Part shown: piece after piece, positions 10,623-45,188 of the stretch
How positions within the stretch are numbered: position 1 is the first letter of the stretch
Layout: every line of letters starts with the position of its first letter
Origin: Chitinophagales bacterium
Lineage (GTDB): Bacteria; Bacteroidota; Bacteroidia; Chitinophagales; CAIODY01
Assembly (NCBI GenBank): GCA_947449695.1
Contig: CANFST010000004.1
Location: 22,555-86,554 of the forward strand
Length of the DNA stretch: 64,000 bases
Direction of reading: 5' to 3'
Position numbers and translations under genes: made by a program
The notes under the pieces: generated by a model
Told to the model about the DNA's origin: nothing
Databases searched by the model: none
What the model saw: the letters and a program-made list of their open reading frames with translations, nothing else

Positions 10623-10625
10623 AAT

Positions 10626-10886: not shown

Positions 10887-10950
10887 GGATTATTTTTTAC
10901 AAAATTAATGTTTTTTTAGAAAAAATTATTGCCCTCTATGGCGTTTGATT

Positions 10951-21648: not shown

Positions 21649-23250
21649 ATGAAGAAAATTATATTTCTTTTACTTACTTCAGCAATTTCTTTTTTTTCAA
21701 ATGCTCAAAATCTTGGTCGAATAACAGGTTCTCTGCAATACAATCAAAACTTTTATCAACGCGATAGCACAATTGGTGCAAGCGGAAATCCGCTTTATGA
21801 CAATCGCTTGAGCGGCGGAGAAGGCTGGTTGAATTTGAATTACACCAATAACGAAATGGGGCTAAGTAGCCAATTCAGGTTAGATATTTTCAATAATTCA
21901 AATCTGCATAATCCCATTTCGCCTTATAGTTCGCAAGGTATTGGATTTTGGAATGTGAGTAAACAATTTGAAAACCTAACAGTAACTGGTGGTTATTTTT
22001 ATGACCAATTTGGCTCTGGCATTGTATTTAGAGCCTATGAAGACAGAGGTTTGGGTATTGATAATGCAATATATGGTTTGCAATTAAAGTATAAATTATT
22101 CAATGATAAGATTTTTATCAAGGCATTTACTGGTCAGCAAAAAAGCTTATTTAGTGTCTATGCCCCTATTGTAAAAGGCGTTAATGTTGAATCATTTTTT
22201 GACGCTAATCAAGTTCAATTTTCGCCAGGGATTTCAATTGTAAACAGAACTTTGGATGATGTGAATTTCAATTCAATAAAGCAAGAAATAATAAACATGA
22301 CTTCTTATGATAGCAAGTTTATTCCTAAATATAATGCTTATGCTTATTCAATTTATAATACCACTAACTTCAGTAATTTCAGTTGGTATGCTGAATATGC
22401 TGGGAAAACAAGTGAAGCAATCAGAGATTATAATGGGAATCTTATAAATAAACCGGGTTCAGTTATTTTTTCAACTTTAAATTATTCGGTGAAAGGATTT
22501 GGTGCAACAGTTCAATACAAGCGAACTGATTATTTCAAATTTAGAATTGACCCTAATGAGAATGAAGTTTTATTGAAAGGTATGGTTAGTTTTCAGCCGC
22601 CAATTTCACATCAAAACTCATTGCGTTTGTTAGCTCGTTATATGCCTGCAACACAGGAACTAGGTGAGCAGGCAGCCGAGACTGATGTGTTTTGGAATCC
22701 GTCTAAAGGCTATAAATTGAGTGGCAATTACACACACATTGACGATAACCATGGCGGATTTTTATACCAAGAAGGTTATGGTGATATTGAAATTAAGAAA
22801 CTTCGTAAATCAACTATAGATTTAGGTTTGCAAGCTGTTGATTATAATTTAGCAGTATATCAAGGTCATCAGGGAAGACCGATTGTACATACGTTTGTTC
22901 CTTTTGCGGAATTCAGTCATAAATTTTCTGATACCAAATCTATTCGTACTGAATTACAATATATGTTTAGCAAACAAGATTATGGTTCCTGGGCTTATGC
23001 ATTGGTTGAGTATAGCATTGCGCCTCATTATTCATTTGCTGTAAGCGATATGTATAATACAGTTGTAAGTACTGACAACCCCCATCCGCAAGCTCATTAC
23101 TATAATTTCTTTGCAAGCTATACCGAACATAGCACAAGATTCACTGTGGCTTATGTAAAACAAGTAGCAGGCGTAGTTTGCACAGGTGGTGTATGCCGCC
23201 AAGAACCTGCATTTAGCGGTGTGAAGATGAGTATATCGACAGTATTTTAA
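21649..23250 (+). CDS. outer-membrane beta-barrel protein (DUF6029-like)
   Basis: I prefer the ATG at 21649 (MKKIIFLLLTSAISFFSNAQ signal). The pattern is alternating and aromatic-rich, ending with a terminal F (ISTVF). The family name is from memory of its synteny with Omp28-related genes and was not verified. Confidence 0.45.
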   Translation: MKKIIFLLLTSAISFFSNAQNLGRITGSLQYNQNFYQRDSTIGASGNPLYDNRLSGGEGWLNLNYTNNEMGLSSQFRLDIFNNSNLHNPISPYSSQGIGFWNVSKQFENLTVTGGYFYDQFGSGIVFRAYEDRGLGIDNAIYGLQLKYKLFNDKIFIKAFTGQQKSLFSVYAPIVKGVNVESFFDANQVQFSPGISIVNRTLDDVNFNSIKQEIINMTSYDSKFIPKYNAYAYSIYNTTNFSNFSWYAEYAGKTSEAIRDYNGNLINKPGSVIFSTLNYSVKGFGATVQYKRTDYFKFRIDPNENEVLLKGMVSFQPPISHQNSLRLLARYMPATQELGEQAAETDVFWNPSKGYKLSGNYTHIDDNHGGFLYQEGYGDIEIKKLRKSTIDLGLQAVDYNLAVYQGHQGRPIVHTFVPFAEFSHKFSDTKSIRTELQYMFSKQDYGSWAYALVEYSIAPHYSFAVSDMYNTVVSTDNPHPQAHYYNFFASYTEHSTRFTVAYVKQVAGVVCTGGVCRQEPAFSGVKMSISTVF

Positions 23251-23274
23251 TTTTTTTGAAAAAATATTTTTACG

Positions 23275-24174
23275 ATGAAAAAAGTTTTTGGCTCAATTGT
23301 TTTAGCAGCAATTTTTGTATTGAATGGATGCAAAGAAATTGGTCCGCCAATCGTATTGCAAGCGCCTCCAGTTGTAAAAGGAACTAAACCAAGTGGATTA
23401 ATTTCTGATTCAACATACATTGAAACAAGCATTCCAGCAGCAGATGTAAAACGGGTTATGATAGAAGAATTTTCAGGACAACATTGCCCTAATTGTCCGA
23501 AAGGCCACGAGGCAGTTGACCAATTGATTGCGACTAATCCAGGCTTAATTTCATCGGCAACTTTGCATACTTCATTTTTCAGTCCCCAAAGCGACCCCAT
23601 TGCTCCAGTAGATTTCAGAACATCTTTCTCAACTGATATCATCAATGATTATGGCGCTGGCGCAATTGGAATTCCTTGTGCAATGATGGATAGAGTTTTA
23701 TTCTCTGGACAAAGCAGCACAGCTTTACTTTCCCCAACTTCATGGTCTGGTTTTGTAGCAACTGAATTAGCAAAAACTTCCTATGTTAACATTAAACTTA
23801 ACAGCTTTTGGGATGCTCCAATTAACCAAGATTCAGTAACAGTTGAATTACATTTTACTTCCGCATCAAGTGATAATATTAATTTAAGCTTAATGCTTAC
23901 CGAAGATAATATCATTGCAGGGCAAGATTCAACAGGTATAATTTTACCTAATTATACACATAATCGGATCTTGCGCACTATGCTAACACCATCAACAGGT
24001 ATAAATATTACGCCAAGCAAAGTAGCAGGTAGAGTGGTTATTTACAAATTCCGCTCTGATGTTATTGATACTTCAAAATGGAAATTGAATAATTTAAAAT
24101 TGATTGCTTTTGTTCATAAACAAAATATTGGAGTTTATGACATCATTCAAGTTTCAGAAAAAAAGGTACAATAA
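23275..24174 (+). CDS. Omp28-related / thioredoxin-fold outer-membrane lipoprotein
   Basis: Lipoprotein signal (LNGC). EEFSGQHCPNCP is a CxxC motif in a thioredoxin-like context. Length is 299 aa. Confidence 0.45.
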   Translation: MKKVFGSIVLAAIFVLNGCKEIGPPIVLQAPPVVKGTKPSGLISDSTYIETSIPAADVKRVMIEEFSGQHCPNCPKGHEAVDQLIATNPGLISSATLHTSFFSPQSDPIAPVDFRTSFSTDIINDYGAGAIGIPCAMMDRVLFSGQSSTALLSPTSWSGFVATELAKTSYVNIKLNSFWDAPINQDSVTVELHFTSASSDNINLSLMLTEDNIIAGQDSTGIILPNYTHNRILRTMLTPSTGINITPSKVAGRVVIYKFRSDVIDTSKWKLNNLKLIAFVHKQNIGVYDIIQVSEKKVQ

Positions 24175-24215
24175 AGTTTAAAAAATCTGACAACCACCAA
24201 AAAAGAAGAGCTTTC

Positions 24216-25106
24216 TTATTTAATCATTTTCAAATAATGCTCAATAGCTGCCGCCATACTAGGCATACCGTGTTTAGGCGCTTCTATATGCAATTTAAAT
24301 CCTGATTCTTTAACAGCCAAGCAAGTGGTTGGGCCAAACGCACCAATACGAATATTTTTCTGCTTAAACTTAGGAAAATTTTTCGTTAGCGCTTCAATTG
24401 CAGAAGGGCTAAAAAATACCATCATGTCAAAAGAATCTAATTGCAAATGTTTTATTTCGCTAGGGGTAGTTCTGAACAATACAGCCTCAAAGTATTTGAA
24501 CTTATTTTTTTTAAGATGGCTCACGATTTCAGTATTTGGTGTTTCGCTACAAGGCAATAAATAACTTTCGCCTTCGATGTGTTTGTTCAAAACATTTAAT
24601 AAATCCTTGGTTGTACCATCGCCAAAAAACACTTTTCTTTTACGATATTGAATAAACTTTTGCAGATATAATGCAATAGACTCAGTAGTGCAAAAATATT
24701 TGGTTTCGCTACTCATTTGTGTTTTTAATTCACCCAATAACCTAAAGAAGTGGTCAACTGAATTACGGCTGGTTAAAATAACAGCTGTAAATTCATGCAA
24801 GTGAATTCGATATCGCCTAAATTCTTTGGCAGTAATACCGTTGATTTCGAAGAATGGCTGAAACTCAATATTTATTTTAAATCGTTTAGCTATTTCAAAA
24901 TAAGGTGACCTATCACCTTCAACAGGCTTAGGTTGAGTAATCAACAATCTTTTTACAGGTTCACCTTTTATCACTTCTACCTGAACAGGCTTAGATTTTG
25001 GGGCTTCAATTAATTTTTTCTTTTTTGCTGTAGCTGATTTGGCAGGCTTTGCTTTGCTAATAACAACTTTTTTTGCAGCAACTTTCTTTTTAACAATAGT
25101 AGGCAC
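24216..25106 (-). CDS. hemD: uroporphyrinogen-III synthase (HemD)-like protein with a Lys/Ala/Pro-rich N-terminal tail
   Basis: The core LLITQPKPVEGDRSPYFEIAKRFKINIEFQPF...AVILTSRNSVDHFFRL...KYFCTTESIALYLQKFIQYRKRKVFFG matches the Bacteroidetes HemD-like family. The first ~50 aa are KKKVAAKKVVISKAKPAKSATAKKKK. Confidence 0.65.
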   Translation of the reverse strand: MPTIVKKKVAAKKVVISKAKPAKSATAKKKKLIEAPKSKPVQVEVIKGEPVKRLLITQPKPVEGDRSPYFEIAKRFKINIEFQPFFEINGITAKEFRRYRIHLHEFTAVILTSRNSVDHFFRLLGELKTQMSSETKYFCTTESIALYLQKFIQYRKRKVFFGDGTTKDLLNVLNKHIEGESYLLPCSETPNTEIVSHLKKNKFKYFEAVLFRTTPSEIKHLQLDSFDMMVFFSPSAIEALTKNFPKFKQKNIRIGAFGPTTCLAVKESGFKLHIEAPKHGMPSMAAAIEHYLKMIK

Positions 25107-25139
25107 TTTGTCGAGTTGTTTTAGTTTAAATATTAAAAA

Positions 25140-26102
25140 TCATTTTAAGATAGACAATTGTTGCACTAATTTAATCAGTATCAATATAGGCGCAACTTCA
25201 ACGGTGCAAATATACAAAATAAAATGGAAGAAATTTGCAAACATTATATTTCCTCCGATTCGCCAAGCAATAACAATTCGATAAATTGTCATTCCTGATA
25301 GCAAAATATAACAACCTATCCACAAAAAATTGATAATTGAAGGGCTACCAAATGCTAATACCAAATTTAGTGGGACAAAGATAATTCCTGCAAACTCTAA
25401 TTGCATCAGATCTAAGTAGCTTAGAGTTTCTAAATCATTTTTTTGATTAAACAAATTAACGGCTAACCGATAAATCGTCATTCGACATATCACAAACCCA
25501 ATAATACCAATCATCAAAATTGGTATTAAGAACAATTCATTAAAGGAAATCTGTACTTTTTGACGATGTAAATGCAAAAAAAGTAAAATTGCAAAAGCCA
25601 CGTAAAAATTGATAGCCAATAACAAGCCTGGTACTGAAAAAGAAATATCCTGCTGCCGCATCATCTGCATTGCATTGTTCAAATTAAAATAGGATTTCCA
25701 TAATTCAATAAAAAATCTAGCAAAAAACGATTTCACAAAAACAACTATTGCTGCCAAAAACAAAATGATATAAAAAAGCCATTTTTCAGGCATTGCCGGA
25801 CGAAGTTGCGCAAATTCTGTTTTCGTATCATCAGCTTTAAATAGCTGACTATTCTCTACCACAATTGGTTTATGGCGCAATGAATCGAACTGATAATAAT
25901 TTTGTGATTGGGAATAATTATACCCAGAATCGGGCAATATATAAGGGAAAAATGCCGATGAACTGCTGGTGTCGTGATGAGGTAAAAAGAAGTTTGAAAA
26001 TTTTGATAAACTATCTACTTTAAGCATAGGAGCCGGCATTAATGGTAAGTGTATTGCTACAAGTAGAAAAAATAAAATCCAATTTTTTCTTAAGTTCAAC
26101 AT
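25140..26102 (-). CDS. DUF4271-like polytopic membrane protein
   Basis: 320 aa with about 6 TM helices. It lies immediately upstream of the HemD-like gene, a synteny I recall for DUF4271. The family assignment was not verified. Confidence 0.5.
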   Translation of the reverse strand: MLNLRKNWILFFLLVAIHLPLMPAPMLKVDSLSKFSNFFLPHHDTSSSSAFFPYILPDSGYNYSQSQNYYQFDSLRHKPIVVENSQLFKADDTKTEFAQLRPAMPEKWLFYIILFLAAIVVFVKSFFARFFIELWKSYFNLNNAMQMMRQQDISFSVPGLLLAINFYVAFAILLFLHLHRQKVQISFNELFLIPILMIGIIGFVICRMTIYRLAVNLFNQKNDLETLSYLDLMQLEFAGIIFVPLNLVLAFGSPSIINFLWIGCYILLSGMTIYRIVIAWRIGGNIMFANFFHFILYICTVEVAPILILIKLVQQLSILK

Positions 26103-26536
26103 GCAAGATTAGTGATTTTATCTACTCGGTTTTGATGCCGCCCACCTTCAAAAGCAGTAGCAAAAAATAATTCAACACACTCCCATGCATCAGCTGGATT
26201 GATAAACCGGGCTGGCAAACAAATAATATTGCTATTATTATGTTGTCGGGTAAGTTTTGCTATTTCAGGAAGCCAGCAAATAGCTGCACGAACAAATGGA
26301 TATTTATTAGCGGTAATGGCAACGCCTTGTGCACTTCCACAAATTAAAATAGCTTTTTCAAATTCGTTGTTGCCTAAAGCTTTACAAAGTGGGTGAACCA
26401 CATCAGGATAGTCCATTGAATCTGCTGAATGAGTACCAAAATCTTTTATTGTGTAGCCATGTTGTGTTAGATGTTGAACAATAAATTGTTTCAATTCAAA
26501 CCCAGCATGGTCGGCGGCAATAGCGATAGTTGACAT
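26096..26536 (-). CDS. rpiB: ribose-5-phosphate isomerase B
   Basis: IAIAADHAGFELKQ, ILICGSAQGVAITANK and GGRHQNRV are typical of RpiB/LacAB. Confidence 0.88.
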   Translation of the reverse strand: MSTIAIAADHAGFELKQFIVQHLTQHGYTIKDFGTHSADSMDYPDVVHPLCKALGNNEFEKAILICGSAQGVAITANKYPFVRAAICWLPEIAKLTRQHNNSNIICLPARFINPADAWECVELFFATAFEGGRHQNRVDKITNLAC

Positions 26537-26563
26537 ATCTTTCAGTAAAATTAGTAGCTAAAA

Positions 26564-27691
26564 TTAATAATTTCCACTCAGCATAATAGGCATTATCAGC
26601 ATCAACAAGTTTTCGTTGGTGGCTTGTTGTTCGGGCACAACAATACCTGCACGTGATGGTGAACTCATTTCGAAACGAATATTATCACAGTTTAATGCCG
26701 AAAGCATATCAATCAGAAATTTTCCATTGAAGCCAATTTCTAAATCAACGCCGTTATAATTACAAACTAAAGTTTCATCAGCCTCGTTAGAAAAATCTAA
26801 ATCTTGTCCTGTAATATGCAATTGACTGCCCTTTAAATTAAATGCTACTTGATTAGTGGTTTTATTACTAAAAATACAAACCCGTTTTAACGCTCCCAAC
26901 AAATCATCTTTAGCAATGCTCAATACATTTGGATTTTCAGTTGGTATCACCGCTTCATAATCAGGATATTTCGCATCAATCAGTCTGCATACTAATTGAA
27001 TATTGCCACAATCGAAATAAGCATTGTTCTTGTCATAAGCTATTTGAGCTGGCGTTAAATCGTTGGGTAATATATTTTTTACAATGCCAATTGATTTACG
27101 AGGCACTATAAAATTAGCAGATTCCTCATGTTTCAAATCACTTCTTTTAATGCTTACCAAACGATGAGCATCCGTACTGACAAAATTGCATCCATCTTTA
27201 CCCAACTGGAAATATAATCCTGTCATTGCAGGGCGAAGTTCCTCTTGTCCTATTGCAAAAAAACAACTATTGATGATGTGTGCTAACTCCGATCCTGCAA
27301 TTGTGATGCCTTTAGTGCCCTCAGTTGCTTTAGGTATTTTAGGGAAGTTGTCACCATCTTCGCCGTTCAATTTATAAATTCCATTATCAGAAGTAATCTC
27401 TACCGAAAAGTTTTCTTCATCTACTTTAAAGGTAAGGGGCTGTTCGCTCAAATTTTTCAATACCTCCATCAATTGTTTGCCTTCGATAGCAACCTTAATT
27501 ACATCTTTGCATTCTACTTCTAAGCTAGTGACCATGCTTGTTTCCAAGTCGCTGCTGCAAAGCACTAAGTTATTTTTTTTAATATCGAATAAGAAATTAT
27601 CTAATATAGGCAATACTTTGTTGCCAGCTAATGCGCCGCTGATGCTTTGCAATTGTTTCAATAAGGCTGAAGTGGATACAATAAATTTCAT
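26564..27691 (-). CDS. dnaN: DNA polymerase III beta sliding clamp
   Basis: 375 aa. MKFIVSTSALLKQLQSISGAL, PRKSIGIVKNIL, VIPTENPN and the C-terminal LMLIMPIML are typical of DnaN. Confidence 0.92.
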   Translation of the reverse strand: MKFIVSTSALLKQLQSISGALAGNKVLPILDNFLFDIKKNNLVLCSSDLETSMVTSLEVECKDVIKVAIEGKQLMEVLKNLSEQPLTFKVDEENFSVEITSDNGIYKLNGEDGDNFPKIPKATEGTKGITIAGSELAHIINSCFFAIGQEELRPAMTGLYFQLGKDGCNFVSTDAHRLVSIKRSDLKHEESANFIVPRKSIGIVKNILPNDLTPAQIAYDKNNAYFDCGNIQLVCRLIDAKYPDYEAVIPTENPNVLSIAKDDLLGALKRVCIFSNKTTNQVAFNLKGSQLHITGQDLDFSNEADETLVCNYNGVDLEIGFNGKFLIDMLSALNCDNIRFEMSSPSRAGIVVPEQQATNENLLMLIMPIMLSGNY

Positions 27692-27865
27692 TCTGAATAC
27701 TGATTAATTCATTAAAAAAAACAAAGATAAATGACGCGACAAATAATAAGGTAAAGGAATTGGTTTTATTTTCCACATCAATGTAGATAAATGATAAATG
27801 CAGTAATTAGTTTCACAATCATTTCATTTTAGCAACTCAAAATTACAATTATCTTGCAGGCGCAA

Positions 27866-28873
27866 ATGAAAACAAAATCATTACTTGTATTAGGTTGTTT
27901 GTTGTTGAGCTTTAACAAATTCAGCTCGGCTCAATTGCTACCCAAATATGGCGATAGCCGAAGCGGCACAACGGGTTTTCAATTTTTAAAGATTGCTCCC
28001 GATGCTCGTTCAGTGGGTATGGGCGAAGCTTTTACTGCTGTAGTAAATGATATGAGTGCAGTATATTGGAATCCTGCTGGTATTGCTCAATTAGATAGTT
28101 CGATTATACATGCACAAGTTGGGCAAACTAACTATTTTAGTCATATCAATTTGCAACAAATTGCTATTGCAAAAAAAATCAGACCTTCCGTTTTTTTAGC
28201 TGCACATCTCGAATATCTGAGCACTGGTTATATGAATGTAACTACTGAATTTGCACCTACCGGCAACGGACAACAATTTAATTTTTCTGATTTGGCTTTA
28301 GGCATAAGTATGGCTAAAACCCTTACTGATAATTTTAGTTTTGGTTTTACAGCAAAATATATTCGTGAAGGAATTGCAACTGTGTACACCAAAAATATAG
28401 TGGCTGATTTTGGTTTTCAATACAATATTGGCAAAGGCAATACAAGATTTGCAGTAGGGGTCAGCAATTTTGGTTCGCCTACTTCGGCTGGTGGAAGTTT
28501 TACCAAGCTTACATTTGGAGGAGATGCAACCTATAAAAATTTTGAAAAAATAAATGTCCCTTCTGTTTTCAGATTAGGCGTTGCAACAGATGTGATTAAA
28601 AAGAATAATCAATTGCTAACTATTGCTGCACAATTAAATCACCCAACTGATAATAATGAATCAGTAAATGTGGGGGTGGAATATGGCTGGCATAAAACCT
28701 TATTTGGCCGAATGGGTTATCAATTCGGAACAGATGAAAGCTACCTGCCTTCTTTCGGCATCGGATTATTGGTGAAACGTAAATTTGGCAATATCCGCTT
28801 CGACTATGGTTTTCAGGCTAAAAAATTATTAGGCGTAGTGCATCGCATCAGCCTTACTGCCGATTTGTTTTAA
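27866..28873 (+). CDS. PorV/PorQ-family T9SS-associated outer-membrane beta-barrel protein
   Basis: I prefer the ATG at 27866 (MKTKSLLVLGCLLLS). FQFLKIAPDARSVGMGEAFTAVVNDMSAVYWNPAGIA is the family's N-terminal signature. Confidence 0.62.
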   Translation: MKTKSLLVLGCLLLSFNKFSSAQLLPKYGDSRSGTTGFQFLKIAPDARSVGMGEAFTAVVNDMSAVYWNPAGIAQLDSSIIHAQVGQTNYFSHINLQQIAIAKKIRPSVFLAAHLEYLSTGYMNVTTEFAPTGNGQQFNFSDLALGISMAKTLTDNFSFGFTAKYIREGIATVYTKNIVADFGFQYNIGKGNTRFAVGVSNFGSPTSAGGSFTKLTFGGDATYKNFEKINVPSVFRLGVATDVIKKNNQLLTIAAQLNHPTDNNESVNVGVEYGWHKTLFGRMGYQFGTDESYLPSFGIGLLVKRKFGNIRFDYGFQAKKLLGVVHRISLTADLF

Positions 28874-29295
28874 AGCATTTTTTTTAATAATTTCAATTGC
28901 TTGTCTTCAGCCAATCGCATATCGGCTTTATCTTTTTTTGTTTTGTCTTTACAACCACACAAATGCAATATGCCATGTATCATCACCCTGTTCAGTTCTT
29001 CTTCAAATGTGATTTTTAAAGTATTTGCATTTTCTTTCACCCTATCAATGCTGATATAAATTTCGCTTTCTATTTCATTTTTTGTTGAATAATCAAACGT
29101 AATTATATCGGTATAAAAATCGTGTTGCAAAAAGCCCTGATTGATTTCTAACAAATATTCATCGCTGCAAAACACATAAGTGATGCTGTTTAAGTTTTTT
29201 TTGTATTGCTTAAAAGCCCCTGCTATCCAAAGCTTCAGCTTGGTTTTGTTTTTTAATTGAAATTTTATTTCGTGTGTGAAAAACTGAATTGACAT
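28870..29295 (-). CDS. ybeY: rRNA maturation RNase YbeY
   Basis: Zinc motif HGILHLCGCKD. I prefer the internal ATG at 29295 (MSIQFF...), which gives a typical ~141-aa length. Confidence 0.85.
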   Translation of the reverse strand: MSIQFFTHEIKFQLKNKTKLKLWIAGAFKQYKKNLNSITYVFCSDEYLLEINQGFLQHDFYTDIITFDYSTKNEIESEIYISIDRVKENANTLKITFEEELNRVMIHGILHLCGCKDKTKKDKADMRLAEDKQLKLLKKML

Positions 29296-29417
29296 GTGTT
29301 TTGAGTTTATATAATGCAAAGGTAAGCCATGATAAACTATCCTGTTCATCTATCTAGCGCTATTTGGAATAGCGTACAAACTTAGTGAACAGCTGCCGCC
29401 AGAATGATGCAGCCCAA

Positions 29418-30656
29418 TTACTCTTTCACAAACTTAGCTGTATGCACAAAACCTTTTTCATCCGTAGCTTTTATAAAATAGATGCCGCTTGATAAATCAC
29501 TCACCTCTATTTGTATTGCATTTTCTAATCTACTCATCTTCAAATCTTCTAATTTTCTGCCTACCACATCATATACTTCTATTGTTTTTACTAATGACTG
29601 CTGATTGACTATTGTTAAATTGGTATTTGCTGGATTCGGATATACTTCCAACTGCCTATTGTTATTGGTTAATTGGTTGATGCCCACATTACTGACAATT
29701 ACTGTTACTGTGTCATAATAAGTAGTATTACAAATAGTGGATTGCAAAACATAAGTAGTGGTTTGCTGAGGTTGCACCCATATACCGCCTGTGTTTTGCT
29801 TAATAAGGCTACTGCCCACATACCAGTTATTTTGCACACCCGGCACTTGTTCTATACCTAAATACACACTATCACCTTTGGCTATGGTGGTATCCTTACC
29901 GGCGTAGGCACCGGCTTCAATGACAAATACATCGTCTATTAAATAACCACTGCCATATCCAGGATAACTTTGATTTATCAATATTGTATCTGTTAAAGAA
30001 TCTGAATGAAAATTACTAATAATAGCATATTTTTCGCTGCCATGAGCTTGATAAATACCAGCTATAGGTGTCCAGTTCATTGTATCTGTTATTACAGGAT
30101 TACCTTGCTTCATGATGTGTGATGGCAACTGAACTAAATCATGAAAATATTGTGTCCCACCATACGGACCAGCAGGTAAAGCTGTATCGCTTATGCTTAT
30201 GGCTATGTTATTACATGCAGTGTAATCAGAAAATAAATTAACATAAAAATAAACAATATAACAATTATTTGCTTTTAAAGTATCAGCAAAAGGTACTTGA
30301 ATATAATCTCTATAGTCAGCTCCTTTATTAAAATCATTAAACCACATACCAACCATTTTTTTTCCTGTTCTTGGGCATTGATAAGCTAAACCCGAAAAAA
30401 GCGGAGCTAAACATGATGAAGTTGAAGGAGCATCGGTATGAAAAATTTCTGCAAAGTTTGTAACTGGTGAATTCCAAGGTTTCGCCAAATGCATTCTCCC
30501 CCCCCAACATAATTCATTAAATGGGCTAGGAAAAGAATCAACAAGCTCAAAACTATAATTAGGAATAAGATTGGTTTGCGCTTTGCAGTTGACAGAATAA
30601 AATAAAAAAGCCAACAGCAACAGCTGCTGGCTTTTTTTAATAAAATTATTTATCAT
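29418..30656 (-). CDS. secreted protein with T9SS type A C-terminal sorting domain
   Basis: Signal peptide present. The C-terminal LEVYPNPANTNLTIV...SGIYFIKATDEKGFVHTAKFVKE is a T9SS CTD pattern. Confidence 0.7.
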   Translation of the reverse strand: MINNFIKKSQQLLLLAFLFYSVNCKAQTNLIPNYSFELVDSFPSPFNELCWGGRMHLAKPWNSPVTNFAEIFHTDAPSTSSCLAPLFSGLAYQCPRTGKKMVGMWFNDFNKGADYRDYIQVPFADTLKANNCYIVYFYVNLFSDYTACNNIAISISDTALPAGPYGGTQYFHDLVQLPSHIMKQGNPVITDTMNWTPIAGIYQAHGSEKYAIISNFHSDSLTDTILINQSYPGYGSGYLIDDVFVIEAGAYAGKDTTIAKGDSVYLGIEQVPGVQNNWYVGSSLIKQNTGGIWVQPQQTTTYVLQSTICNTTYYDTVTVIVSNVGINQLTNNNRQLEVYPNPANTNLTIVNQQSLVKTIEVYDVVGRKLEDLKMSRLENAIQIEVSDLSSGIYFIKATDEKGFVHTAKFVKE

Positions 30657-30753
30657 GTTGTATTACTATCTTTTTAAAACTTTTTTCATTATTGCTTGTA
30701 TTGGTCATACTTAATAAATAAGTACCGCTTTGCAAAGTACTTGTATTGCAGCC

Positions 30754-30814
30754 GTTGTCGGAGTTTGTCCTCCGACAACTTCCTTTGAATCGTTGGTGAA
30801 CAAACACCAACGAT
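30754..30814. repeat. two adjacent perfect 10-bp hairpins
   Basis: GTTGTCGGAG (30754-30763) pairs with CTCCGACAAC (30770-30779), loop TTTGTC. ATCGTTGGTG (30789-30798) pairs with CACCAACGAT (30805-30814), loop AACAAA. Confidence 0.9.
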
Positions 30815-30824
30815 GGCTGAACTT

Positions 30825-30987
30825 GTTTCCGTCAAGAAACATTTTGTTTCCACATGGAAACAACTTTTTTCCACATGGAAAACTTTCTTTTCCGCATGGA
30901 AAGATTTCTTTTCCGGATGGAAAAGTTTTATTTCCACCCGGAAACTTTTTGTTTCCGAACGCTAACAAGTTGTTTCCGAACGGAAAA
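30825..30987. repeat. tandem array of 8 units with an exact 21-nt period, each a TTTCC-N(4-6)-GGAAA dyad
   Basis: Unit starts are 30825, 30846, 30867, 30888, 30909, 30930, 30951 and 30972. In order the units read GTTTCCGTCAAGAAAC, GTTTCCACATGGAAAC, TTTTCCACATGGAAAA, TTTTCCGCATGGAAAG, TTTTCCGGATGGAAAA, ATTTCCACCCGGAAAC, GTTTCCGAACGCTAAC and GTTTCCGAACGGAAAA. Confidence 0.9.
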
Positions 30988-31004
30988 ATCACCCAGCTCG
31001 TCCT

Positions 31005-31057
31005 CCTCTGCCGCCGAGCCTTTGCGTTGCGGACGAGGATGCAGAGGCTTTTTGTTT
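31005..31057 (+). terminator. terminator-like GC-rich hairpin plus T-run on the plus strand, with no plus-strand gene upstream
   Basis: CCTCTGC (31005-31011) pairs with GCAGAGG (31041-31047), with an inner CCGC/GCGG pairing. CTTTTTGTTT follows at 31048-31057. Confidence 0.35.
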
Positions 31058-31252
31058 CTAACAAATTTATAATTTTTCATTCTTCTGGTCGGTATTTATT
31101 TTCGTCATAGATGAAATTCCACTTGCATCCTCGTTTCCTGCGCTCATATCGCTGCTACAAACGAGGCCGAGCTAGGAAAATTTGGCTCAGTTTAACTGCC
31201 ATTCTTTACTCGTTTTTTCACCTGCTTCAATTAATAAAATGACAGAAAAGTA

Positions 31253-32620
31253 TCAAAACAACAATTGATAAACCTGTTCCAATTTTGAACAAGTGATTAC
31301 TTCAATATTATATCTCGAGGTGTCTAATCCTTTTTTATTGTAAGATGAAATTACAATTTTTTCGAAGCCTAACTTATCAGCTTCGGCAATGCGTTGGTCT
31401 ATTTTATTTACAGCCCGTATTTCACCACTCAAGCCAACTTCGCCCACAAAACAAATGTTGGCAGCCAATGGTTTGTCTTCGTAACTACTTAATAATGCGC
31501 TACAAATTGCTAAATCTAAAGCTGGGTCATCAATCTTTAATCCGCCAGCTAGATTCACAAAAACATCTTTTGTTCCGAATGTAAATCCACCACGTTTTTC
31601 TAAAACAGCCAACAACATATTTAATCTTCGCAAATCAAAACCTGTTGCTGTGCGCTGCGGTGTGCTGAAATGCGTTTGCGTAACCAATGCTTGTGTTTCA
31701 ATCAACATTGGTCGTAGGCCTTCCATTGTTGCAGCGATTGCAATTCCACTCAATTGCTCTTCACGTTGTGTAATTAAAATTTCGCTTGGGTTATTTACCT
31801 GTCGCAAACCATTGGGTTGCATTTCATAAATGCCCAATTCACTGGTTGAACCAAATCTGTTTTTTAAAGTTCGTAAAATTCGGTAAGTATAATGTTGGTC
31901 GCCTTCAAACTGCAAAACCGTATCTACCATGTGTTCCAACACTTTTGGCCCAGCAATGCTACCATCTTTTGTAATATGCCCAATCAAAAAAACAGGCACA
32001 TTGGTTTCCTTTGCATAACGCTGCCATTCGCCTGTACACTCCCTAATTTGCGACACACTGCCCGGCGTTGATTCAATCAAATTGCTGTGCAAAGTTTGAA
32101 TAGAATCAATAATAATTACATCAGGCTGAATTTGTTCAAGTGCTTTAAATATATGCTGGGTGCAAGTTTCGGTGAGCAAATACATTTCTTGTTGCGATGA
32201 AATTCTATCAGCTCTCATTTTTATTTGCTGCTCACTTTCTTCACCGCTGATGTACAAAACCTTCTTGGGATGCAGTTGCAGAGCCAATTGCAAAAACAAA
32301 GTTGATTTGCCAATGCCCGGTTCGCCAGCCACTAAAACCAATGAACCTGGCACAATTCCACCGCCCAACACTCTGTTTAATTCAGCGTCGGGCGTAATTA
32401 ATTTGAATTCTAAACTCGGCACAATTTCATTCAAAGCCACAGGTTTGGCTATGGTGGCTGATTTCCGAACATCACTTTTCCATTCGTAAGGTTTTTGTTC
32501 TTTCGAAATTAATTCTTCCACAATCGTATTCCACTCACCACACGATGTGCAGCGCCCAACCCATTTAGAATAATTTGTGCCACAACTCTGGCAGCTATAA
32601 ACTGTTTTTGTTTTACTCAT
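31253..32620 (-). CDS. radA: DNA repair protein RadA/Sms
   Basis: N-terminal zinc finger CQSCGTNYSKWVGRCTSCGEW, Walker A GEPGIGKST, the KNRFG motif, and a Lon-like C-terminal domain. Confidence 0.92.
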   Translation of the reverse strand: MSKTKTVYSCQSCGTNYSKWVGRCTSCGEWNTIVEELISKEQKPYEWKSDVRKSATIAKPVALNEIVPSLEFKLITPDAELNRVLGGGIVPGSLVLVAGEPGIGKSTLFLQLALQLHPKKVLYISGEESEQQIKMRADRISSQQEMYLLTETCTQHIFKALEQIQPDVIIIDSIQTLHSNLIESTPGSVSQIRECTGEWQRYAKETNVPVFLIGHITKDGSIAGPKVLEHMVDTVLQFEGDQHYTYRILRTLKNRFGSTSELGIYEMQPNGLRQVNNPSEILITQREEQLSGIAIAATMEGLRPMLIETQALVTQTHFSTPQRTATGFDLRRLNMLLAVLEKRGGFTFGTKDVFVNLAGGLKIDDPALDLAICSALLSSYEDKPLAANICFVGEVGLSGEIRAVNKIDQRIAEADKLGFEKIVISSYNKKGLDTSRYNIEVITCSKLEQVYQLLF

Positions 32621-32625
32621 TTTTT

Positions 32626-33105
32626 TTAGTCCAATCTGCTTGTATCTTCCTTTTCAGAAAGTTCGGTAAAAAGTTTTCGAATTAATTTAAAATTATCGTA
32701 GCGGTATTCCTGCAACAATATTTGTTTGCCGGTTTTTAATACCAATAATAATTTTTCATTTTGAGAATCACCTTGGAGGGGTGAAATACCTTTAAAATTA
32801 GGATCTTTATAGATATCAGTTCGTAAATTTAAATCAGCTAAATCTTTATAATAAACTTTCTCTGTTTCAGATTTAAAACTATTTTTTATTTCAAAATACT
32901 CATTGTAAAAAGTGTAAGATGGGATGGTTAAATATTTCAAAATCAAATATCCATTGAATATTACCAAGGCAATTGATGAACTGTAGCCAATCCAATCATT
33001 AAAACTCAAAAACCAATTGATAACAAAAATGCTAATAATGGGAATCAGTATTGCTCCCAATAAAGTGGAAATACTTTTTTCAGATTTTAATACCGGTTCT
33101 TCCAT
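32626..33105 (-). CDS. hypothetical membrane protein (2 TM helices plus a soluble C-terminal domain)
   Basis: 159 aa ORF lying 5 nt upstream of radA on the same strand. No family recognised. Confidence 0.45.
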   Translation of the reverse strand: MEEPVLKSEKSISTLLGAILIPIISIFVINWFLSFNDWIGYSSSIALVIFNGYLILKYLTIPSYTFYNEYFEIKNSFKSETEKVYYKDLADLNLRTDIYKDPNFKGISPLQGDSQNEKLLLVLKTGKQILLQEYRYDNFKLIRKLFTELSEKEDTSRLD

Positions 33106-33116
33106 TTCTGTCTTTT

Positions 33117-33596
33117 TTATTTATTAATAAATTTAGGATGCTCCTTATACGACATGGTATAACCTAGGTAAATTGCAAAGCCATACAAAACAATACTTGA
33201 TGGACGAAGCCTGTCTAACATAGCATGAGCAATAAAACTCAATTCAGCATGACGTGAATCACCTGGAATAATTTCATTAATATCTGTATTGTAATTGGCA
33301 ATTAGAACATACAAAAAATTAGCAAAAAAACAACCGCAAAATGCAAAGAAGGCGCCCATCATCCCAAACCGTAATCCATAACCATTCCCTTTCACTTTAT
33401 GAATCACTTTGCCCACTAAATAACCAATCCCAGGCAACAAATAGCCAGCCCGATAAGCAATAAAAAAAACTAAAGCTACCCACACCAATGCTCCTACAAA
33501 GGCAGCAATGGCAGCGCCAATTATTGCCAACAAAACATTTCCTGGTTCATTGTTTTCTTTATCAATTGTATTAGCTGTATTGTCAGATTCTGTCAT
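33117..33596 (-). CDS. hypothetical polytopic membrane protein
   Basis: 159 aa with about 4 TM helices, 11 nt upstream of the previous gene. No family recognised. Confidence 0.45.
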   Translation of the reverse strand: MTESDNTANTIDKENNEPGNVLLAIIGAAIAAFVGALVWVALVFFIAYRAGYLLPGIGYLVGKVIHKVKGNGYGLRFGMMGAFFAFCGCFFANFLYVLIANYNTDINEIIPGDSRHAELSFIAHAMLDRLRPSSIVLYGFAIYLGYTMSYKEHPKFINK

Positions 33597-42680: not shown

Positions 42681-43640
42681 ATGAAAAAGTTTATATCTGT
42701 ATTAGCAGCATCGTTTTTGTTTGCCTCAGCCATTGCTCAAACCAATAATCAAGATGGTGATGTATATCCACCAAATGCTGAACCAGGGAAGTGTTACGCC
42801 AAATGCTTAAAGCCTGATGTATTTGAAACAGTTACTGAAAAGGTAATGATTGAACCTGAAAAAAAAGCGTTTCGTGTTATTCCAACCACTTATAAAAATG
42901 TTACTGAACAATTAATGGTAAAATCTGAAACTAAACGTTTGGAAATTATTCCAGCAGTTTATGAAACTCAAACTGAGCAAGTGAAAGTGAAAGATGAAAC
43001 AAAAAGAATTATAAATATTTCGGCTACTTACAAAACAGTTACTGAGCAAGTCTTGGTAAAATCTGAAGGACAAAAATGGGTAAAGAAAAAACAAACAGGT
43101 TGCTTAAGCGACAACCCTGATGATTGCATTATTATGTGTTTAGAAAAAACACCTGCTGAATATAAAACTGTTACTAAACAAGTTTTAGAAAATCCTGCTA
43201 CAACGAAGGAAGAAGTGATTCCTGCTGAATATAAAACTGTTACTAAAACTGTGGTTAAAACACCTGCAAGCACTAAAGAAATTGTGATTCCTGCCGAATA
43301 CAAAACGGTTATAAAACAAGTGGTAGATGTTGCAGCTCATACACAAGAAGTGATTACACCAGCTGAATATCAAACTGTTTCTAAAAGAGTTTTAAAAACA
43401 AAAGGTGGCTATAGTGAATGGAAAGAAATCGTTTGTGATAACAAAGTAAATACAGACATTGTTAGTCAAATACAAGCTGCATTAAAAAAGAAAGGTTATG
43501 ATATTGGTCCAAAAGGAGTTGATGGTGTTTTGGGCACAGATACAAAAGCGGCTTTAGTTAAGTATCAAAAAGATAATAGTTTGCCAGTTGGTAATTTGAA
43601 CATTGAAACCATGAAATCTTTAGGTATCAAATTCGATTAA
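42681..43640 (+). CDS. secreted repeat protein with C-terminal peptidoglycan-binding domain
   Basis: Signal peptide, then about 9 tandem ~19-aa repeats (IPAEYKTVTKQV......TKE.V). The C-terminal PG_binding_1-like sequence is LKKKGYDIGPKGVDGVLGTDTKAALVKYQKDNSLPVG. Confidence 0.65.
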   Translation: MKKFISVLAASFLFASAIAQTNNQDGDVYPPNAEPGKCYAKCLKPDVFETVTEKVMIEPEKKAFRVIPTTYKNVTEQLMVKSETKRLEIIPAVYETQTEQVKVKDETKRIINISATYKTVTEQVLVKSEGQKWVKKKQTGCLSDNPDDCIIMCLEKTPAEYKTVTKQVLENPATTKEEVIPAEYKTVTKTVVKTPASTKEIVIPAEYKTVIKQVVDVAAHTQEVITPAEYQTVSKRVLKTKGGYSEWKEIVCDNKVNTDIVSQIQAALKKKGYDIGPKGVDGVLGTDTKAALVKYQKDNSLPVGNLNIETMKSLGIKFD

Positions 43641-45154: not shown

Positions 45155-45188
45155 AAAAAAAGGAGTGAAAATTTCACTCCTTTTTTTG
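45155..45188. terminator. bidirectional terminator between frr and ssrA
   Basis: AAAAAAAGGAGTGA-AAATT-TCACTCCTTTTTTT is a 7-bp stem flanked by A7 and T7. Confidence 0.65.

What the first reader, a model, noticed from the sequence alone, without database searches (positions are those of the whole stretch)
30657..31252. 596-bp gene-free, locally GC-rich, densely structured spacer between radA and a T9SS cargo gene: candidate undescribed ncRNA or regulatory locus
Genes elsewhere in the window are separated by 0-190 bp. Here ~600 bp lie between two same-strand (minus) genes, with no credible protein gene. The spacer contains, in order: a small AAGTAC/GTACTT hairpin, two perfect 10-bp hairpins, eight 21-nt-phased dyad units, and a GC-rich block with several mutually exclusive pairings. 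After these come a plus-strand terminator-like hairpin, an AT-rich stretch and a 43-codon ORF. In a genome this AT-rich, runs such as GCTCGTCCTCCTCTGCCGCCGAGCC stand out by eye. I do not recognise it as RNase P RNA, SRP RNA or 6S RNA. The tmRNA is elsewhere, at 45189-45557.
Basis: partly seen in the sequence, partly recalled or inferred. Interest (0 to 1): 0.72.

Follow-up and report, generated by a model that had tools for sequence, protein, structure and literature searches.

The report
Strain-variable palindromic repeat spacer upstream cargo
The 596-bp gap is real non-coding DNA that goes with the downstream secreted-protein (T9SS cargo) gene, and it holds a 21-bp palindromic repeat array that gains or loses units between near-identical strains; it is most likely a tunable control region, not a known RNA gene.

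Summary
No Rfam family matches and no ORF in the gap looks coding.

The spacer does not go with radA. Relatives with 90-98% identical RadA lack it. It goes with the downstream T9SS cargo gene.

Near-identical strains in ENA metagenomes show one difference across 8.6 kb on the cargo side. In the spacer core they differ only by one extra 21-nt unit, 9 versus 8. The array is therefore a hypermutable minisatellite.

Within units, the TTTCC/GGAAA half-sites are almost invariant. The 4-nt centre and 7-nt linker vary freely, and the spacing is exactly 21 bp with no indels. That pattern fits phased sites for a dimeric DNA-binding protein.

The two perfect 10-bp hairpins behave differently: conserved RACAAA loop and GGCT flank, with covarying stems. 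The same module occurs twice upstream of a paralogous cargo gene, very likely in the same genome. That locus has its own 42-nt dyad array.

Both paralogs also carry a terminator-like hairpin about 20 nt inside the ORF.

Best reading: a contingency-type cis-regulatory region. An RNA leader or selfish MITE/REP-like DNA remain live rivals. Moderate interest.

The parts
30604..30637 (-). Terminator-like hairpin T inside the cargo ORF, at nt +20 to +52 in the signal-peptide codons. It has a 15-bp stem with one G.U pair on the sense strand, followed by a U-rich tail.
   Evidence: The terminator scan called it. Sense strand folds at -25.5 kcal/mol against -17.7 for the antisense strand. It is the lowest MFE among 55 ORF starts in the window: -27.3, against mean -12.6, sd 4.7. 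The paralog has an equivalent 13-bp hairpin plus U-run at L088 6021-6052, with a different sequence.
30657..30748 (-). Proximal leader or promoter zone of the cargo gene. It includes the weak AAGTAC/GTACTT hairpin (30720-30742). There is no exact TAnnTTTG box here.
   Evidence: One sister strain (L116) has a substitution at 30742 that breaks the outermost pair of the small hairpin.
30749..30819 (.). U module: two perfect 10-6-10 hairpins in inverted orientation, closed by CAGCC/GGCTG. U1 is 30754-30779; read on the minus strand it has loop GACAAA and flank GGCTG. U2 is 30789-30814; read on the plus strand it has loop AACAAA and flank GGCTG.
   Evidence: I1, I21, I22. The module folds as a three-way junction on either strand, z about -7 to -8. 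U1+GGCT is 30/30 identical to L088 5832-5861. Across the four U copies, 4 of 10 stem pairs change on both sides and 100% stay paired, while loop and GGCT flank are conserved. No further copy was found in the window plus 34 loci.
30797..30821 (+). Block B, TGAAnnAACACCAACRATGGCTGAA, which overlaps the 3' half of U2. It is conserved at both module copies of the paralogous locus.
   Evidence: The ATG inside B opens ORFs of 50, 25 or 6 codons in the three copies, so it is not a conserved start (read directly from the sequences).
30823..30990 (.). Minisatellite of 8 x 21-nt units, each a TTTCC-N4-GGAAA palindrome plus a 7-nt linker. Sister strains have 9 units.
   Evidence: The extra unit TCTTTTCCGTACGGAAAAGTT appears in all seven ENA contigs that span that part of the array. 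The window's unit 5 is a hybrid of their units 5 and 6. Deviations from consensus are 3/90 at half-site positions against 37/99 elsewhere, Fisher p = 2e-9. There are no indels.
30985..31185 (-). GC-rich long imperfect inverted repeat. The arms are about 52 nt, with a perfect core ACGAGGATGCA/TGCATCCTCGT enclosing an 80-nt AT-rich segment. On the minus strand it ends in GGGUGAUUUUUCC. It is probably the radA terminator, and it is unique to this locus.
   Evidence: I4, I16. Fold is -65.3 kcal/mol (z -4.0) on the minus strand and -59.3 (z -2.7) on the plus strand. There is no counterpart in the paralogous spacer.
31062..31069 (-). TAAATTTG, the only exact match in the spacer to the Bacteroidota -7 promoter consensus TAnnTTTG. 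It points toward the array and the cargo gene.
   Evidence: The same octamer sits upstream of the module and array in the paralog (L088 5315-5322). The background rate is 1.7 per kb, so the evidence is weak.
31111..31242 (+). 43-codon ORF; not a gene.
   Evidence: No Pfam hit. A 1-nt indel at 31196 in sister strains shifts its frame.
30813..30965 (+). 50-codon ORF through the array (heptads FxSxWKx); not a gene.
   Evidence: No Pfam hit was found for the two other array-spanning ORFs; this ORF itself was not scanned. An exhaustive HMMER search gave only weak, repeat-driven matches, best E = 3e-7. The one checked (L106) is an unrelated 21-nt repeat read with another genetic code. All six frames are open across the array. 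Conservation comes in 5-nt blocks, not in codon periodicity.

Best explanation
The 596 bp are non-coding DNA and form the upstream control region of the T9SS cargo gene 29418-30656. They are not an appendage of radA. Read in the direction of transcription (minus strand), the region has four parts.

1. A GC-rich 200-nt imperfect hairpin with a U-run. It probably terminates radA.
2. A hypermutable minisatellite of 8 palindromic units (9 in sister strains), TTTCC-N4-GGAAA, spaced exactly 21 bp. That is two turns of B-DNA, so all sites face the same side of the helix. I infer that these are binding sites for a dimeric, or higher-order, DNA-binding protein. Slippage or unequal exchange adds and removes whole units, changing the number of bound proteins. 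This would tune transcription of the secreted-protein gene, as a contingency or rheostat locus.
3. A pair of perfect 10-bp hairpins (U module). Their conserved loop and flank with covarying stems indicate recognition as a folded hairpin, in RNA or in single-stranded DNA.
4. An intrinsic-terminator-like hairpin 20 nt inside the ORF. It would make full-length mRNA depend on read-through, i.e. attenuation.

Shown: the region is non-coding; copy number varies; constraint is position-specific; the phasing holds; module and architecture are shared with a paralogous cargo locus.

Inferred: protein binding, the effect on expression, and attenuation.
For: - Not coding and not a known RNA.
- Linked to the cargo gene, not to radA: relatives with 98% and 90% identical RadA have other genes directly after radA. 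The U module recurs 139 nt upstream of a 67%-identical paralog (L088), against 92 nt here, in the same orientation.
- The paralog is very likely in the same genome. It comes from the same samples, and both proteins list a longest contig of 615,671 bp.
- Same architecture at the paralog: a 1007-bp gene-free spacer; two U+B modules flanking a 4.6 x 42-nt array of AAACAC-N4-GTGTTT dyads with 0% indels; and GGAAGTTTCCGATT twice at exactly 42 nt.
- Hypermutability: window versus L108 shows one difference in 22,000-30,656, and the only change in the spacer core is an in-register 21-nt unit.
- Constraint on half-sites: 3/90 against 37/99 deviations, p = 2e-9. An invariant half-site sequence, a variable centre and strict 21-bp phasing form the signature of operators in double-stranded DNA.
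- A viral contig carries three GTTTCCAnnTGGAAAC palindromes in an intergenic region, two of them 21 bp apart. This shows that such a dyad is used operator-style elsewhere.
- T hairpin in both paralogs, with different sequences.
Against: - No binding protein is identified, and no regulator gene lies nearby.
- No transcription data exist.
- The promoter position is uncertain. The only exact -7 box lies upstream of the array, which would place the array in a transcribed leader.
- The array sequences of the two paralogous loci are unrelated, as expected for fast-turnover or selfish repeats.
- The repeat units are related by descent, so the Fisher test overstates independence.
- The 8-versus-9 difference rests on short-read assemblies. 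However, the units are individually distinct, and every ENA contig that spans the extra-unit site (seven of seven) carries it.
- The nearest other species lacks the cargo gene and spacer after radA. Any function is therefore lineage-specific.
- The paralogs show gene conversion in their C-terminal halves. Some identity between the two loci may therefore reflect exchange, not selection.
Confidence: 0.4

Rival explanations
1. RNA-level element. Transcription starts at the TAAATTTG box (31069-31062, minus strand) and produces a leader of about 400 nt. Alternatively, it produces a stand-alone RNA that ends at the U hairpins or at hairpin T. The 8-9 small hairpins and the U three-way junction would then act in the RNA, through stability, binding or titration of an RNA-binding protein, or attenuation at T.
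For: - The only exact -7 box lies upstream of the array, and the same octamer sits upstream of the paralog's module and array.
- The sense strand folds better than the antisense strand: whole spacer -197 vs -181 kcal/mol; array -55.8 vs -48.6; T -25.5 vs -17.7, thanks to a G.U pair.
- The U copies have a conserved loop and flank with compensatory stem changes.
- In the paralog's 42-nt array, three of the four intact dyads carry a G.U pair, which the fourth replaces by A-U. The G.U pair is allowed only on the sense strand (sequences).
- T is a canonical terminator on the sense strand in both paralogs.
Against: - In the array the stems are invariant in sequence and the loops vary. This is the opposite of what RNA hairpin recognition usually shows.
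- Strict 21/42-bp phasing has no obvious meaning for RNA.
- U2 is in the opposite orientation to U1.
- TAnnTTTG occurs 1.7 times per kb by chance.
- No Rfam relative was found.
- No antiterminator partner for T was seen.
Confidence: 0.2
2. Selfish or neutral repeat DNA. The spacer would be a patchwork of low-copy palindromic (REP/REPIN-like) units and a minisatellite, similar to a MITE with an internal minisatellite. It would have been carried along with, or inserted next to, the cargo genes. Any regulatory effect would be incidental.
For: - Copy-number variation is present, and assemblies break at the array, at B and at U1.
- The U units occur in both orientations and as an inverted pair.
- The arrays at the two loci are unrelated in sequence.
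- The element is absent from the nearest other species.
- There is a precedent in Bacteroidota: the BrickBuilt MITE of P. gingivalis has 23-nt repeats, a leader and a tail, varies between strains and often sits next to T9SS CTD genes (PMC4596501).
Against: - No further U copy exists in the 64-kb window or in 34 related loci.
- There are no convincing terminal inverted repeats or target duplications.
- Both known loci place U in the same orientation, 92-139 nt before the start codon of paralogous genes.
- The strong, symmetric, position-specific constraint inside units is not expected of neutral repeats.
- There is no match in phage or plasmid collections.
Confidence: 0.25
3. Invertible promoter (inverton). 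The 80-nt AT-rich segment 31044-31123 carries TAAATTTG and is flanked by the inverted cores ACGAGGATGCA/TGCATCCTCGT. It would flip to switch the cargo gene on and off.
For: An inverted repeat with an 11-nt perfect core flanks the only -7 box (I16). Invertible promoters upstream of surface-protein genes are common in Bacteroidota (own knowledge).
Against: - All seven independent assemblies have the same orientation.
- No recombinase gene is nearby.
- 80 bp is very short for site-specific inversion.
- The paralogous spacer has no equivalent.
Confidence: 0.05
4. One of the ORFs that cross the array encodes a small heptad-repeat protein. The candidates are the 50, 72 and 126 codon ORFs on the plus strand and the 50, 82 and 117 codon ORFs on the minus strand.
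For: All six frames are open across the array. Gene callers annotated the 50-codon minus-strand ORF in the ENA contigs.
Against: - The five spacer ORFs scanned have no Pfam hit: the 43, 50 (minus-strand), 82, 117 and 126 codon ORFs.
- The exhaustive HMMER search gave only repeat-driven hits.
- Conservation comes in 5-nt blocks with no synonymous variation.
- The 43-codon ORF is frameshifted in sister strains.
- The paralogous spacer has no homologous ORF.
Confidence: 0.03
5. Replication- or partition-type iteron array: an origin, a DnaA-box cluster or a centromere-like site.
For: The units are about 21 bp, tandem and in helical phase. Two units contain (T/G)TTTCCACA, which resembles a DnaA box. 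dnaN lies 3 kb away.
Against: - DnaA-box-like 9-mers are not enriched: 15 found against 21.9 expected, with only one in the array.
- GC skew follows gene orientation and shows no switch.
- No rep or par gene is adjacent.
Confidence: 0.02

Closest known systems
BrickBuilt MITE with internal 23-nt minisatellite (Porphyromonas gingivalis; PMC4596501)
   Same: It is an intergenic composite in Bacteroidota. It has a tandem array of about 20-nt units flanked by non-repeat 'leader' and 'tail' segments with inverted repeats. [quoted passage not shown] Unit number differs between strains, and it causes assembly breaks. It often lies next to T9SS CTD protein genes and has promoter activity.
   Different: BrickBuilt has 19 dispersed copies per genome and terminal inverted repeats. 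Here only two loci are known, both upstream of paralogous genes, and no terminal inverted repeats were found. The unit sequence is unrelated (AGAYCATARTATCCTCTCRTRTG). Our units are individually palindromic, with invariant half-sites and exact 21-bp phasing.
Promoter-proximal repeat tracts of contingency loci (e.g. 7-bp repeats upstream of H. influenzae hmw1A/hmw2A; TAAA tract upstream of N. meningitidis nadA) - own knowledge
   Same: A tandem repeat tract lies upstream of a surface or secreted protein gene. Its unit number changes faster than point mutation, and unit number tunes transcription.
   Different: The unit is long (21 bp) and internally palindromic, and a gain or loss keeps the helical face. 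No expression data are available. Only one step (8 vs 9) was observed.
ARG-box type operator arrays (ArgR/AhrC: 18-bp palindromes TGAAT-N4-ATTCA, 21 bp centre to centre) and CRP/FNR-type 5-N4-5 sites - own knowledge
   Same: The geometry matches: 5-nt half-sites separated by 4 nt. For ARG boxes the 21-bp centre-to-centre spacing also matches, so neighbouring sites face one side of the helix and are bound cooperatively.
   Different: The half-site sequence differs (TTTCC, not TGAAT or TTGAT). There are 8-9 sites where ARG boxes come in 2-4. No cognate protein is known.
REP / REPIN / BIME palindromic elements (PMC3733652 abstract; own knowledge)
   Same: The hairpins are short, perfect and about 26 nt, with a conserved flanking tetranucleotide. 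They occur as an inverted pair a few nt apart, and their stems covary.
   Different: Copy number appears low. The flank is GGCT/AGCC, not GTAG or CGTC. No RAYT is known. Position and orientation relative to the paralogous start codons are conserved.
Multi-hairpin protein-titrating RNAs (CsrB/RsmZ type) and leader attenuators (pyrBI type) - own knowledge
   Same: The region has tandem small hairpins containing GGA, and a terminator hairpin placed where a translating ribosome could suppress it.
   Different: The GGA lies in the stem, not in the loop. CsrA is not known in Bacteroidota. No transcript has been mapped, and no antiterminator was found.

Membership tests
Any Rfam 15 RNA family | Covariance-model score at or above the family's gathering threshold | tested here: not met
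   The only hit in the window above gathering is the tmRNA at 45186-45557. In the spacer the best sub-threshold hits are Thr_leader-like matches to the T hairpin, 35 bits against 55. The paralogous spacer also has none.
MITE with internal minisatellite (BrickBuilt type) | Tandem ~20-nt repeats flanked by distinct non-repeat leader and tail segments | tested here: met
   The GC-rich inverted-repeat segment, the 8 x 21-nt array and the U module lie in that order.
MITE with internal minisatellite (BrickBuilt type) | Terminal inverted repeats (and target-site duplication) at the element ends | tested here: not met
   Only an AT-rich 13-nt match of 85% joins the spacer ends (30672-84 with 31246-58). 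No duplication was seen.
MITE with internal minisatellite (BrickBuilt type) | Many dispersed copies in one genome | tested here: inconclusive
   Two loci are known, here and at L088. There is no other U copy in the 64-kb window or in 34 loci. The whole genome is not available.
MITE with internal minisatellite (BrickBuilt type) | Sequence relatedness to the BrickBuilt 23-nt unit | tested here: not met
   The BrickBuilt consensus is AGAYCATARTATCCTCTCRTRTG. Ours is TTGTTTCCGCATGGAAACATT.
REP / REPIN | 20-40-nt palindrome, often as inverted doublet | tested here: met
   U1 and U2 are 26-nt perfect hairpins, inverted and 9 nt apart.
REP / REPIN | Conserved GTAG or CGTC tag at one end | tested here: not met
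   The conserved flank is GGCT(G), i.e. (C)AGCC on the other strand. The tag definition comes from the PMC3733652 abstract.
REP / REPIN | High copy number and a cognate RAYT transposase | not testable with these tools
   Only 64 kb plus about 13 kb of the genome could be read. None was found there.
Contingency locus / promoter VNTR | Repeat tract upstream of a surface or secreted protein gene | tested here: met
   The array lies 170-335 nt upstream of the start codon of a Por_Secre_tail protein gene.
Contingency locus / promoter VNTR | Unit number differs between otherwise near-identical strains | tested here: met
   There are 8 units in the window and 9 in seven ENA contigs. Only one other difference occurs in 22,000-30,656.
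Contingency locus / promoter VNTR | Unit number changes expression | not testable with these tools
   No expression data are available.
Phased operator array for a dimeric/oligomeric DNA-binding protein | Palindromic half-sites conserved in sequence, centre and linkers free | tested here: met
   Deviations are 3/90 at half-site positions against 37/99 elsewhere, p = 2e-9.
Phased operator array for a dimeric/oligomeric DNA-binding protein | Spacing an integral number of helical turns | tested here: met
   The period is 21 nt with 0% indels here, and 42 nt with 0% indels at the paralog.
Phased operator array for a dimeric/oligomeric DNA-binding protein | A cognate protein that binds the sites | not testable with these tools
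   No regulator gene was found among the neighbours scanned.
ARG boxes specifically | Half-sites matching TGAAT-N4-ATTCA | tested here: not met
   The half-sites are TTTCC/GGAAA. The ARG-box consensus is recalled from own knowledge.
Intrinsic terminator / attenuator (hairpin T) | GC-containing stem followed by a U-run on the sense strand | tested here: met
   Window 30637-30604 and L088 6021-6052 were both called by the scan.
Intrinsic terminator / attenuator (hairpin T) | Alternative antiterminator pairing or mapped 3' ends | tested here: inconclusive
   No convincing competitor for the 5' arm was seen by eye in the leader. 3' ends cannot be mapped here.
Invertible promoter (inverton) | Both orientations present in the population | tested here: not met
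   Seven assemblies all have the same orientation. Read-level data are not available.
CRISPR array | Repeats separated by unique spacers of similar length | tested here: not met
   The units are head to tail, with only a 7-nt linker.
oriC / iteron origin / centromere | DnaA-box enrichment, skew switch, or adjacent rep/par gene | tested here: not met
Protein-coding gene | Homologs, a frame kept between strains, codon-periodic conservation | tested here: not met

The most novel reading that the evidence does not exclude
The spacer is one copy of a dedicated control cassette that travels with a small family of T9SS cargo genes. The cassette has three parts: a helically phased array of palindromic sites whose number is reset by slippage, acting as a heritable rheostat; a conserved hairpin module; and a terminator placed inside the signal-peptide codons, so that output depends on transcription-translation coupling. 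In the more radical version, the array is transcribed as a multi-hairpin RNA that titrates an RNA-binding protein, a functional analogue of CsrB in a phylum where none is known.
Probability: 0.12. Interest if true: 0.7.

Novelty: new variant of a known kind. Interest (0 to 1): 0.42.

Why it matters
Little is known about how individual T9SS cargo genes are regulated in environmental Bacteroidota. This locus offers a concrete, testable hypothesis: that an array of phased palindromic sites sets the expression of a secreted protein, and that the array changes length between otherwise near-identical strains. A paralogous locus provides an internal comparison, with the same architecture but a different repeat. 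The terminator-like hairpin inside the signal-peptide codons of both paralogs is also an unusual place for an attenuator. If instead the element proves to be a MITE/REP-like family, it adds a second example, after BrickBuilt, of minisatellite-bearing repeats next to T9SS genes. It would also explain the assembly breaks at these loci.

Tried and rejected
- Rfam, at gathering and at permissive E-value thresholds, on the window, the spacer and the paralogous spacer gave only chance-level hits.
- radA synteny: the 80 GTDB genomes found have RadA at most 70% identical, and none shows similarity to the spacer by blastn or nhmmer. Closer RadA relatives (98%, 90%) have no spacer.
- A JGI metagenome scan for the U1 arms gave 7 hits, all in 48-56% GC contigs. 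Five are one family in which the palindrome lies inside an ORF (MSAFATIVGRLGELSESELRQ...). There is no protein-level relation to any spacer ORF, so these are unrelated.
- Viral scans: the U arms gave none. The double-dyad pattern gave 2 contigs, which are analogies only.
- blastn of the spacer against the phage and plasmid collections gave no match.
- An exhaustive HMMER search with the 50-codon ORF gave only repeat-driven junk.
- A covariance model of the U hairpin found no further copies. The one E = 0.007 hit (L021) is an ordinary hairpin between converging genes.
- oriC or a DnaA-box cluster was rejected.
- An H-type pseudoknot in the GC-rich block was rejected on geometry: only 1 nt would have to span a 7-bp stem. 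The pairings are therefore alternatives.
- A literature search for the TTTCC-N4-GGAAA motif found nothing.
- More distant cargo homologs (51%, 39%) have short upstream regions with no such elements.
Full report
**Observation**

The gap lies between radA (31253-32620, minus strand) and the next minus-strand gene (29418-30656). That gene has only a Por_Secre_tail domain.

- a weak AAGTAC/GTACTT hairpin;
- two perfect 10-bp hairpins (30754-30779 and 30789-30814);
- eight 21-nt units from 30823 to 30990;
- a GC-rich block with pairings in X-Y-X'-Y' order that cannot coexist;
- an AT-rich stretch;
- a 43-codon ORF.

The dyad TTTCC-N4-GGAAA occurs six times in the array and nowhere else in 64 kb, against 0.11 expected. 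The spacer folds far better than shuffled sequence, with z = -10.4 on the minus strand and -8.9 on the plus strand.

Gaps of 701, 644, 560 and 303 bp exist. The 560-bp gap holds the tmRNA, and the 644-bp gap holds two small genes.

**Not a known RNA, not a gene**

No Rfam family reaches threshold on either strand. The best sub-threshold matches are terminator-like hits to a hairpin just inside the cargo ORF.

The ORFs in the gap do not look coding:

- The five spacer ORFs scanned have no Pfam domain.
- The 43-codon ORF is frameshifted by a 1-nt indel in sister strains.
- The 50-codon ORF through the array found only repeat-driven matches in an exhaustive HMMER search. The one hit I inspected is an unrelated 21-nt repeat read in another genetic code.
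- All six frames are open across the array, because the conserved pentamers contain no stop codons.

**Where it belongs**

The organism is a Chitinophagales-like member of Bacteroidota with no close GTDB representative. The best RadA match is 70% identical. None of the 80 loci fetched there resembles the spacer.

Closer RadA relatives exist in the protein collection, but their radA is followed directly by other, convergent genes. The 98% relative is L081 and the 90% relatives are L082-L084. Only radA itself aligns to the window. The spacer is therefore not a radA feature.

The cargo protein has few homologs. The closest is 67% identical (P0121/P0148). It sits in a different neighbourhood, but is preceded by a 1007-bp gene-free spacer. 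That spacer contains, in order:

- a terminator for the upstream gene;
- GGAAGTTTCCGATT twice, exactly 42 nt apart;
- a 76-nt module;
- a 4.6 x 42-nt tandem array whose units carry the dyad AAACAC-N4-GTGTTT;
- about 180 nt of unique sequence;
- the 76-nt module again, 88% identical to the first copy.

The module starts with the hairpin GTTGTCGGAG-RACAAA-CTCCGACAAC-GGCT. This is 30/30 identical to the window's U1 read on the minus strand. The module ends with AACACCAACAATGGCTGAA, which matches the 3' half of the window's U2.

This locus is very likely a paralog in the same genome, not an ortholog in another species. It comes from the same samples as contigs that are syntenic with the window. 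In addition, both its cargo protein and the window-identical YbeY list a longest contig of 615,671 bp.

The two cargo proteins are about 45% identical in the N-terminal half and almost identical from AYAGKDT to the end. The loci therefore exchange sequence.

More distant homologs (51%, 39%) have short upstream regions without these elements.

**Population data**

A YbeY identical to the window's led to ten ENA contigs, L107-L116. They are syntenic with window 18.9-39.3 kb.

Against L108 there is one difference in 22,000-30,656. There are no substitutions in dnaN, the PorV-like gene, ybeY or the cargo gene.

In the spacer core the only change is one additional, in-register 21-nt unit, TCTTTTCCGTACGGAAAAGTT. 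This gives 9 units against 8. The window's unit 5 is a hybrid of their units 5 and 6, the signature of slippage or unequal exchange.

The three small differences at 31195-31238 belong to a replaced radA allele (see 'In passing').

Four of the ten contigs begin inside the spacer: at the array edge, at block B, inside U1 and at the start codon. This is consistent with repeat-induced assembly breaks.

The array is therefore a minisatellite that mutates faster than the surrounding point-substitution rate.

**What the conservation patterns say**

Across the nine units, the ten half-site positions (TTTCC and GGAAA) show 3 deviations in 90 cells. The other eleven positions show 37 in 99, Fisher p = 2e-9. 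This overstates independence, because the units are related by descent.

The 4-nt centre and the 7-nt linker vary freely, there are no indels, and the period is exactly 21 bp. The paralogous array has a different sequence, but again dyad units, no indels and a 42-bp period. Both 21 and 42 bp are whole numbers of turns of 10.5-bp DNA.

An invariant half-site sequence with a free centre and helical phasing is what operators for a dimeric DNA-binding protein look like. RNA hairpins recognised by proteins usually show the opposite pattern: conserved loops and covarying stems.

The U hairpins show exactly that opposite pattern. The four copies share the 10-6-10 geometry, the RACAAA loop and the GGCT flank. 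Yet 4 of 10 stem pairs differ on both sides, with 100% pairing retained. U therefore looks like an element recognised as a folded hairpin, in RNA or in single-stranded DNA. No further U copy exists in the window or in 34 related loci.

**A further element outside the given coordinates**

Twenty nucleotides into the cargo ORF, in the signal-peptide codons, lies a 15-bp hairpin followed by a U-rich tail (30604-30637).

- It is the most stable 5' end among 55 ORFs in the window: -27.3 kcal/mol, against a mean of -12.6 with sd 4.7.
- It is much stronger on the sense strand, -25.5 against -17.7, because of a G.U pair.
- The paralog has a 13-bp perfect hairpin plus U-run at the same place, with a different sequence.

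This is an intrinsic-terminator-like structure that every cargo transcript must read through. I take it as a candidate attenuator.

**Mechanism proposed (confidence 0.4)**

On the minus strand, I read the parts as follows:

- The GC-rich 200-nt imperfect hairpin ending in GGGUGAUUUUUCC probably terminates radA.
- The array is a set of 8-9 same-face binding sites for an unidentified dimeric or oligomeric regulator. Unit gain and loss changes occupancy and so tunes cargo transcription.
- The U module and hairpin T add hairpin-level control.

What is shown: the non-coding nature, the variation, the constraint, the phasing and the sharing with the paralog. What is inferred: binding, the effect on expression and attenuation.

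**Rivals**

1. RNA leader or ncRNA (0.2). The only exact Bacteroidota -7 box, TAAATTTG at 31069-31062 on the minus strand, lies upstream of the array. The same octamer lies upstream of the paralog's module and array, although the motif occurs 1.7 times per kb. The sense strand folds better throughout.
2. Selfish or neutral MITE/REP-like DNA (0.25). The closest precedent is the BrickBuilt MITE of P. gingivalis, which has a 23-nt minisatellite, a leader and a tail, varies between strains and often lies next to T9SS CTD genes (PMC4596501). Here, however, no terminal inverted repeats or dispersed copies were found, and the unit is unrelated.
3. Inverton (0.05). All seven assemblies share one orientation.
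4. Small protein (0.03).
5. Origin or iterons (0.02). DnaA-like boxes are not enriched and there is no skew switch.

**Novelty and interest**

Repeat tracts that vary upstream of surface-protein genes are known, and so are minisatellite-bearing intergenic elements in Bacteroidota. What is new here is the combination:

- palindromic units with invariant half-sites in strict two-turn phasing;
- a covarying hairpin module shared by paralogous T9SS cargo loci;
- a terminator-like hairpin inside the signal-peptide codons of both paralogs.

I rate it a new variant of a known kind and of moderate interest (0.42). Function is unproven, and the element is so far confined to one lineage.

**In passing**

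radA is a hot spot of allele replacement. It differs by 10% from the sister strains, and those strains differ from each other by 5%. The flanks are near-identical, and one boundary lies in the radA-proximal 60 nt of the spacer.

Noticed in passing
window 31253-32620 (radA) and 31195-31238: radA is replaced by divergent alleles in otherwise near-identical strains. Window vs L107 shows 140 substitutions (10.2%). L107 vs L114 is 95.4% identical. The flanking genes differ by 0-0.6%. One boundary of the replaced tract lies in the radA-proximal 60 nt of the spacer. Other divergent islands lie at about 19-20 kb and 36-39 kb.
   Followed up: partly
window 30604-30637; L088 6021-6052: A terminator-like hairpin plus U-run lies inside the signal-peptide codons (nt +20 to +52) of both paralogous cargo genes. 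The sequences differ but the position is the same. It is the most stable 5' end of 55 ORFs in the window.
   Followed up: partly
window 29418-30656 vs P0148 (L088 6001-7230): The two paralogous cargo proteins are mosaic. The N-terminal half is about 45% identical. The C-terminal ~170 residues, from AYAGKDT onward, are nearly identical. This suggests gene conversion between the loci.
   Followed up: no
L088 5168-5181 and 5210-5223: GGAAGTTTCCGATT, containing the dyad TCGGAA-GT-TTCCGA, occurs twice exactly 42 nt apart in the paralogous spacer. It shares the GTTTCCG motif with the window's units.
   Followed up: no
L085 5978-6100 (IMG/VR contig): Three GTTTCCAnnTGGAAAC palindromes lie in a ~700-bp intergenic region of a viral contig, two of them 21 bp apart. 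The layout is operator-like, and the binding protein is unknown.
   Followed up: partly
L100, L101, L103-L105 (JGI contigs, ~55% GC): The U1 arms occur inside an ORF (MSAFATIVGRLGELSESELRQ...) of unrelated organisms. They are followed by ACCAACRATGG, the same 11-mer that follows U in the window and in L088. I treated this as coincidence, but it remains unexplained.
   Followed up: partly
window 32626-33105 and 33117-33596: Two tandem 159-codon ORFs without any Pfam domain lie directly upstream of radA. They are conserved in the 90% RadA relatives.
   Followed up: no
window 10307-10950: This 'gap' holds two small genes that resemble a DUF4160/DUF2442-type pair, judged by eye from the translation. 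They were not scanned against Pfam.
   Followed up: no
window 43152-43327: There is a 69-nt tandem repeat, 2.6 copies at 77% identity, inside the ORF 42681-43640.
   Followed up: no
window 574-1274: This 701-bp stretch has no ORF of 100 codons or more. It is the largest such gap in the window and was not examined.
   Followed up: no
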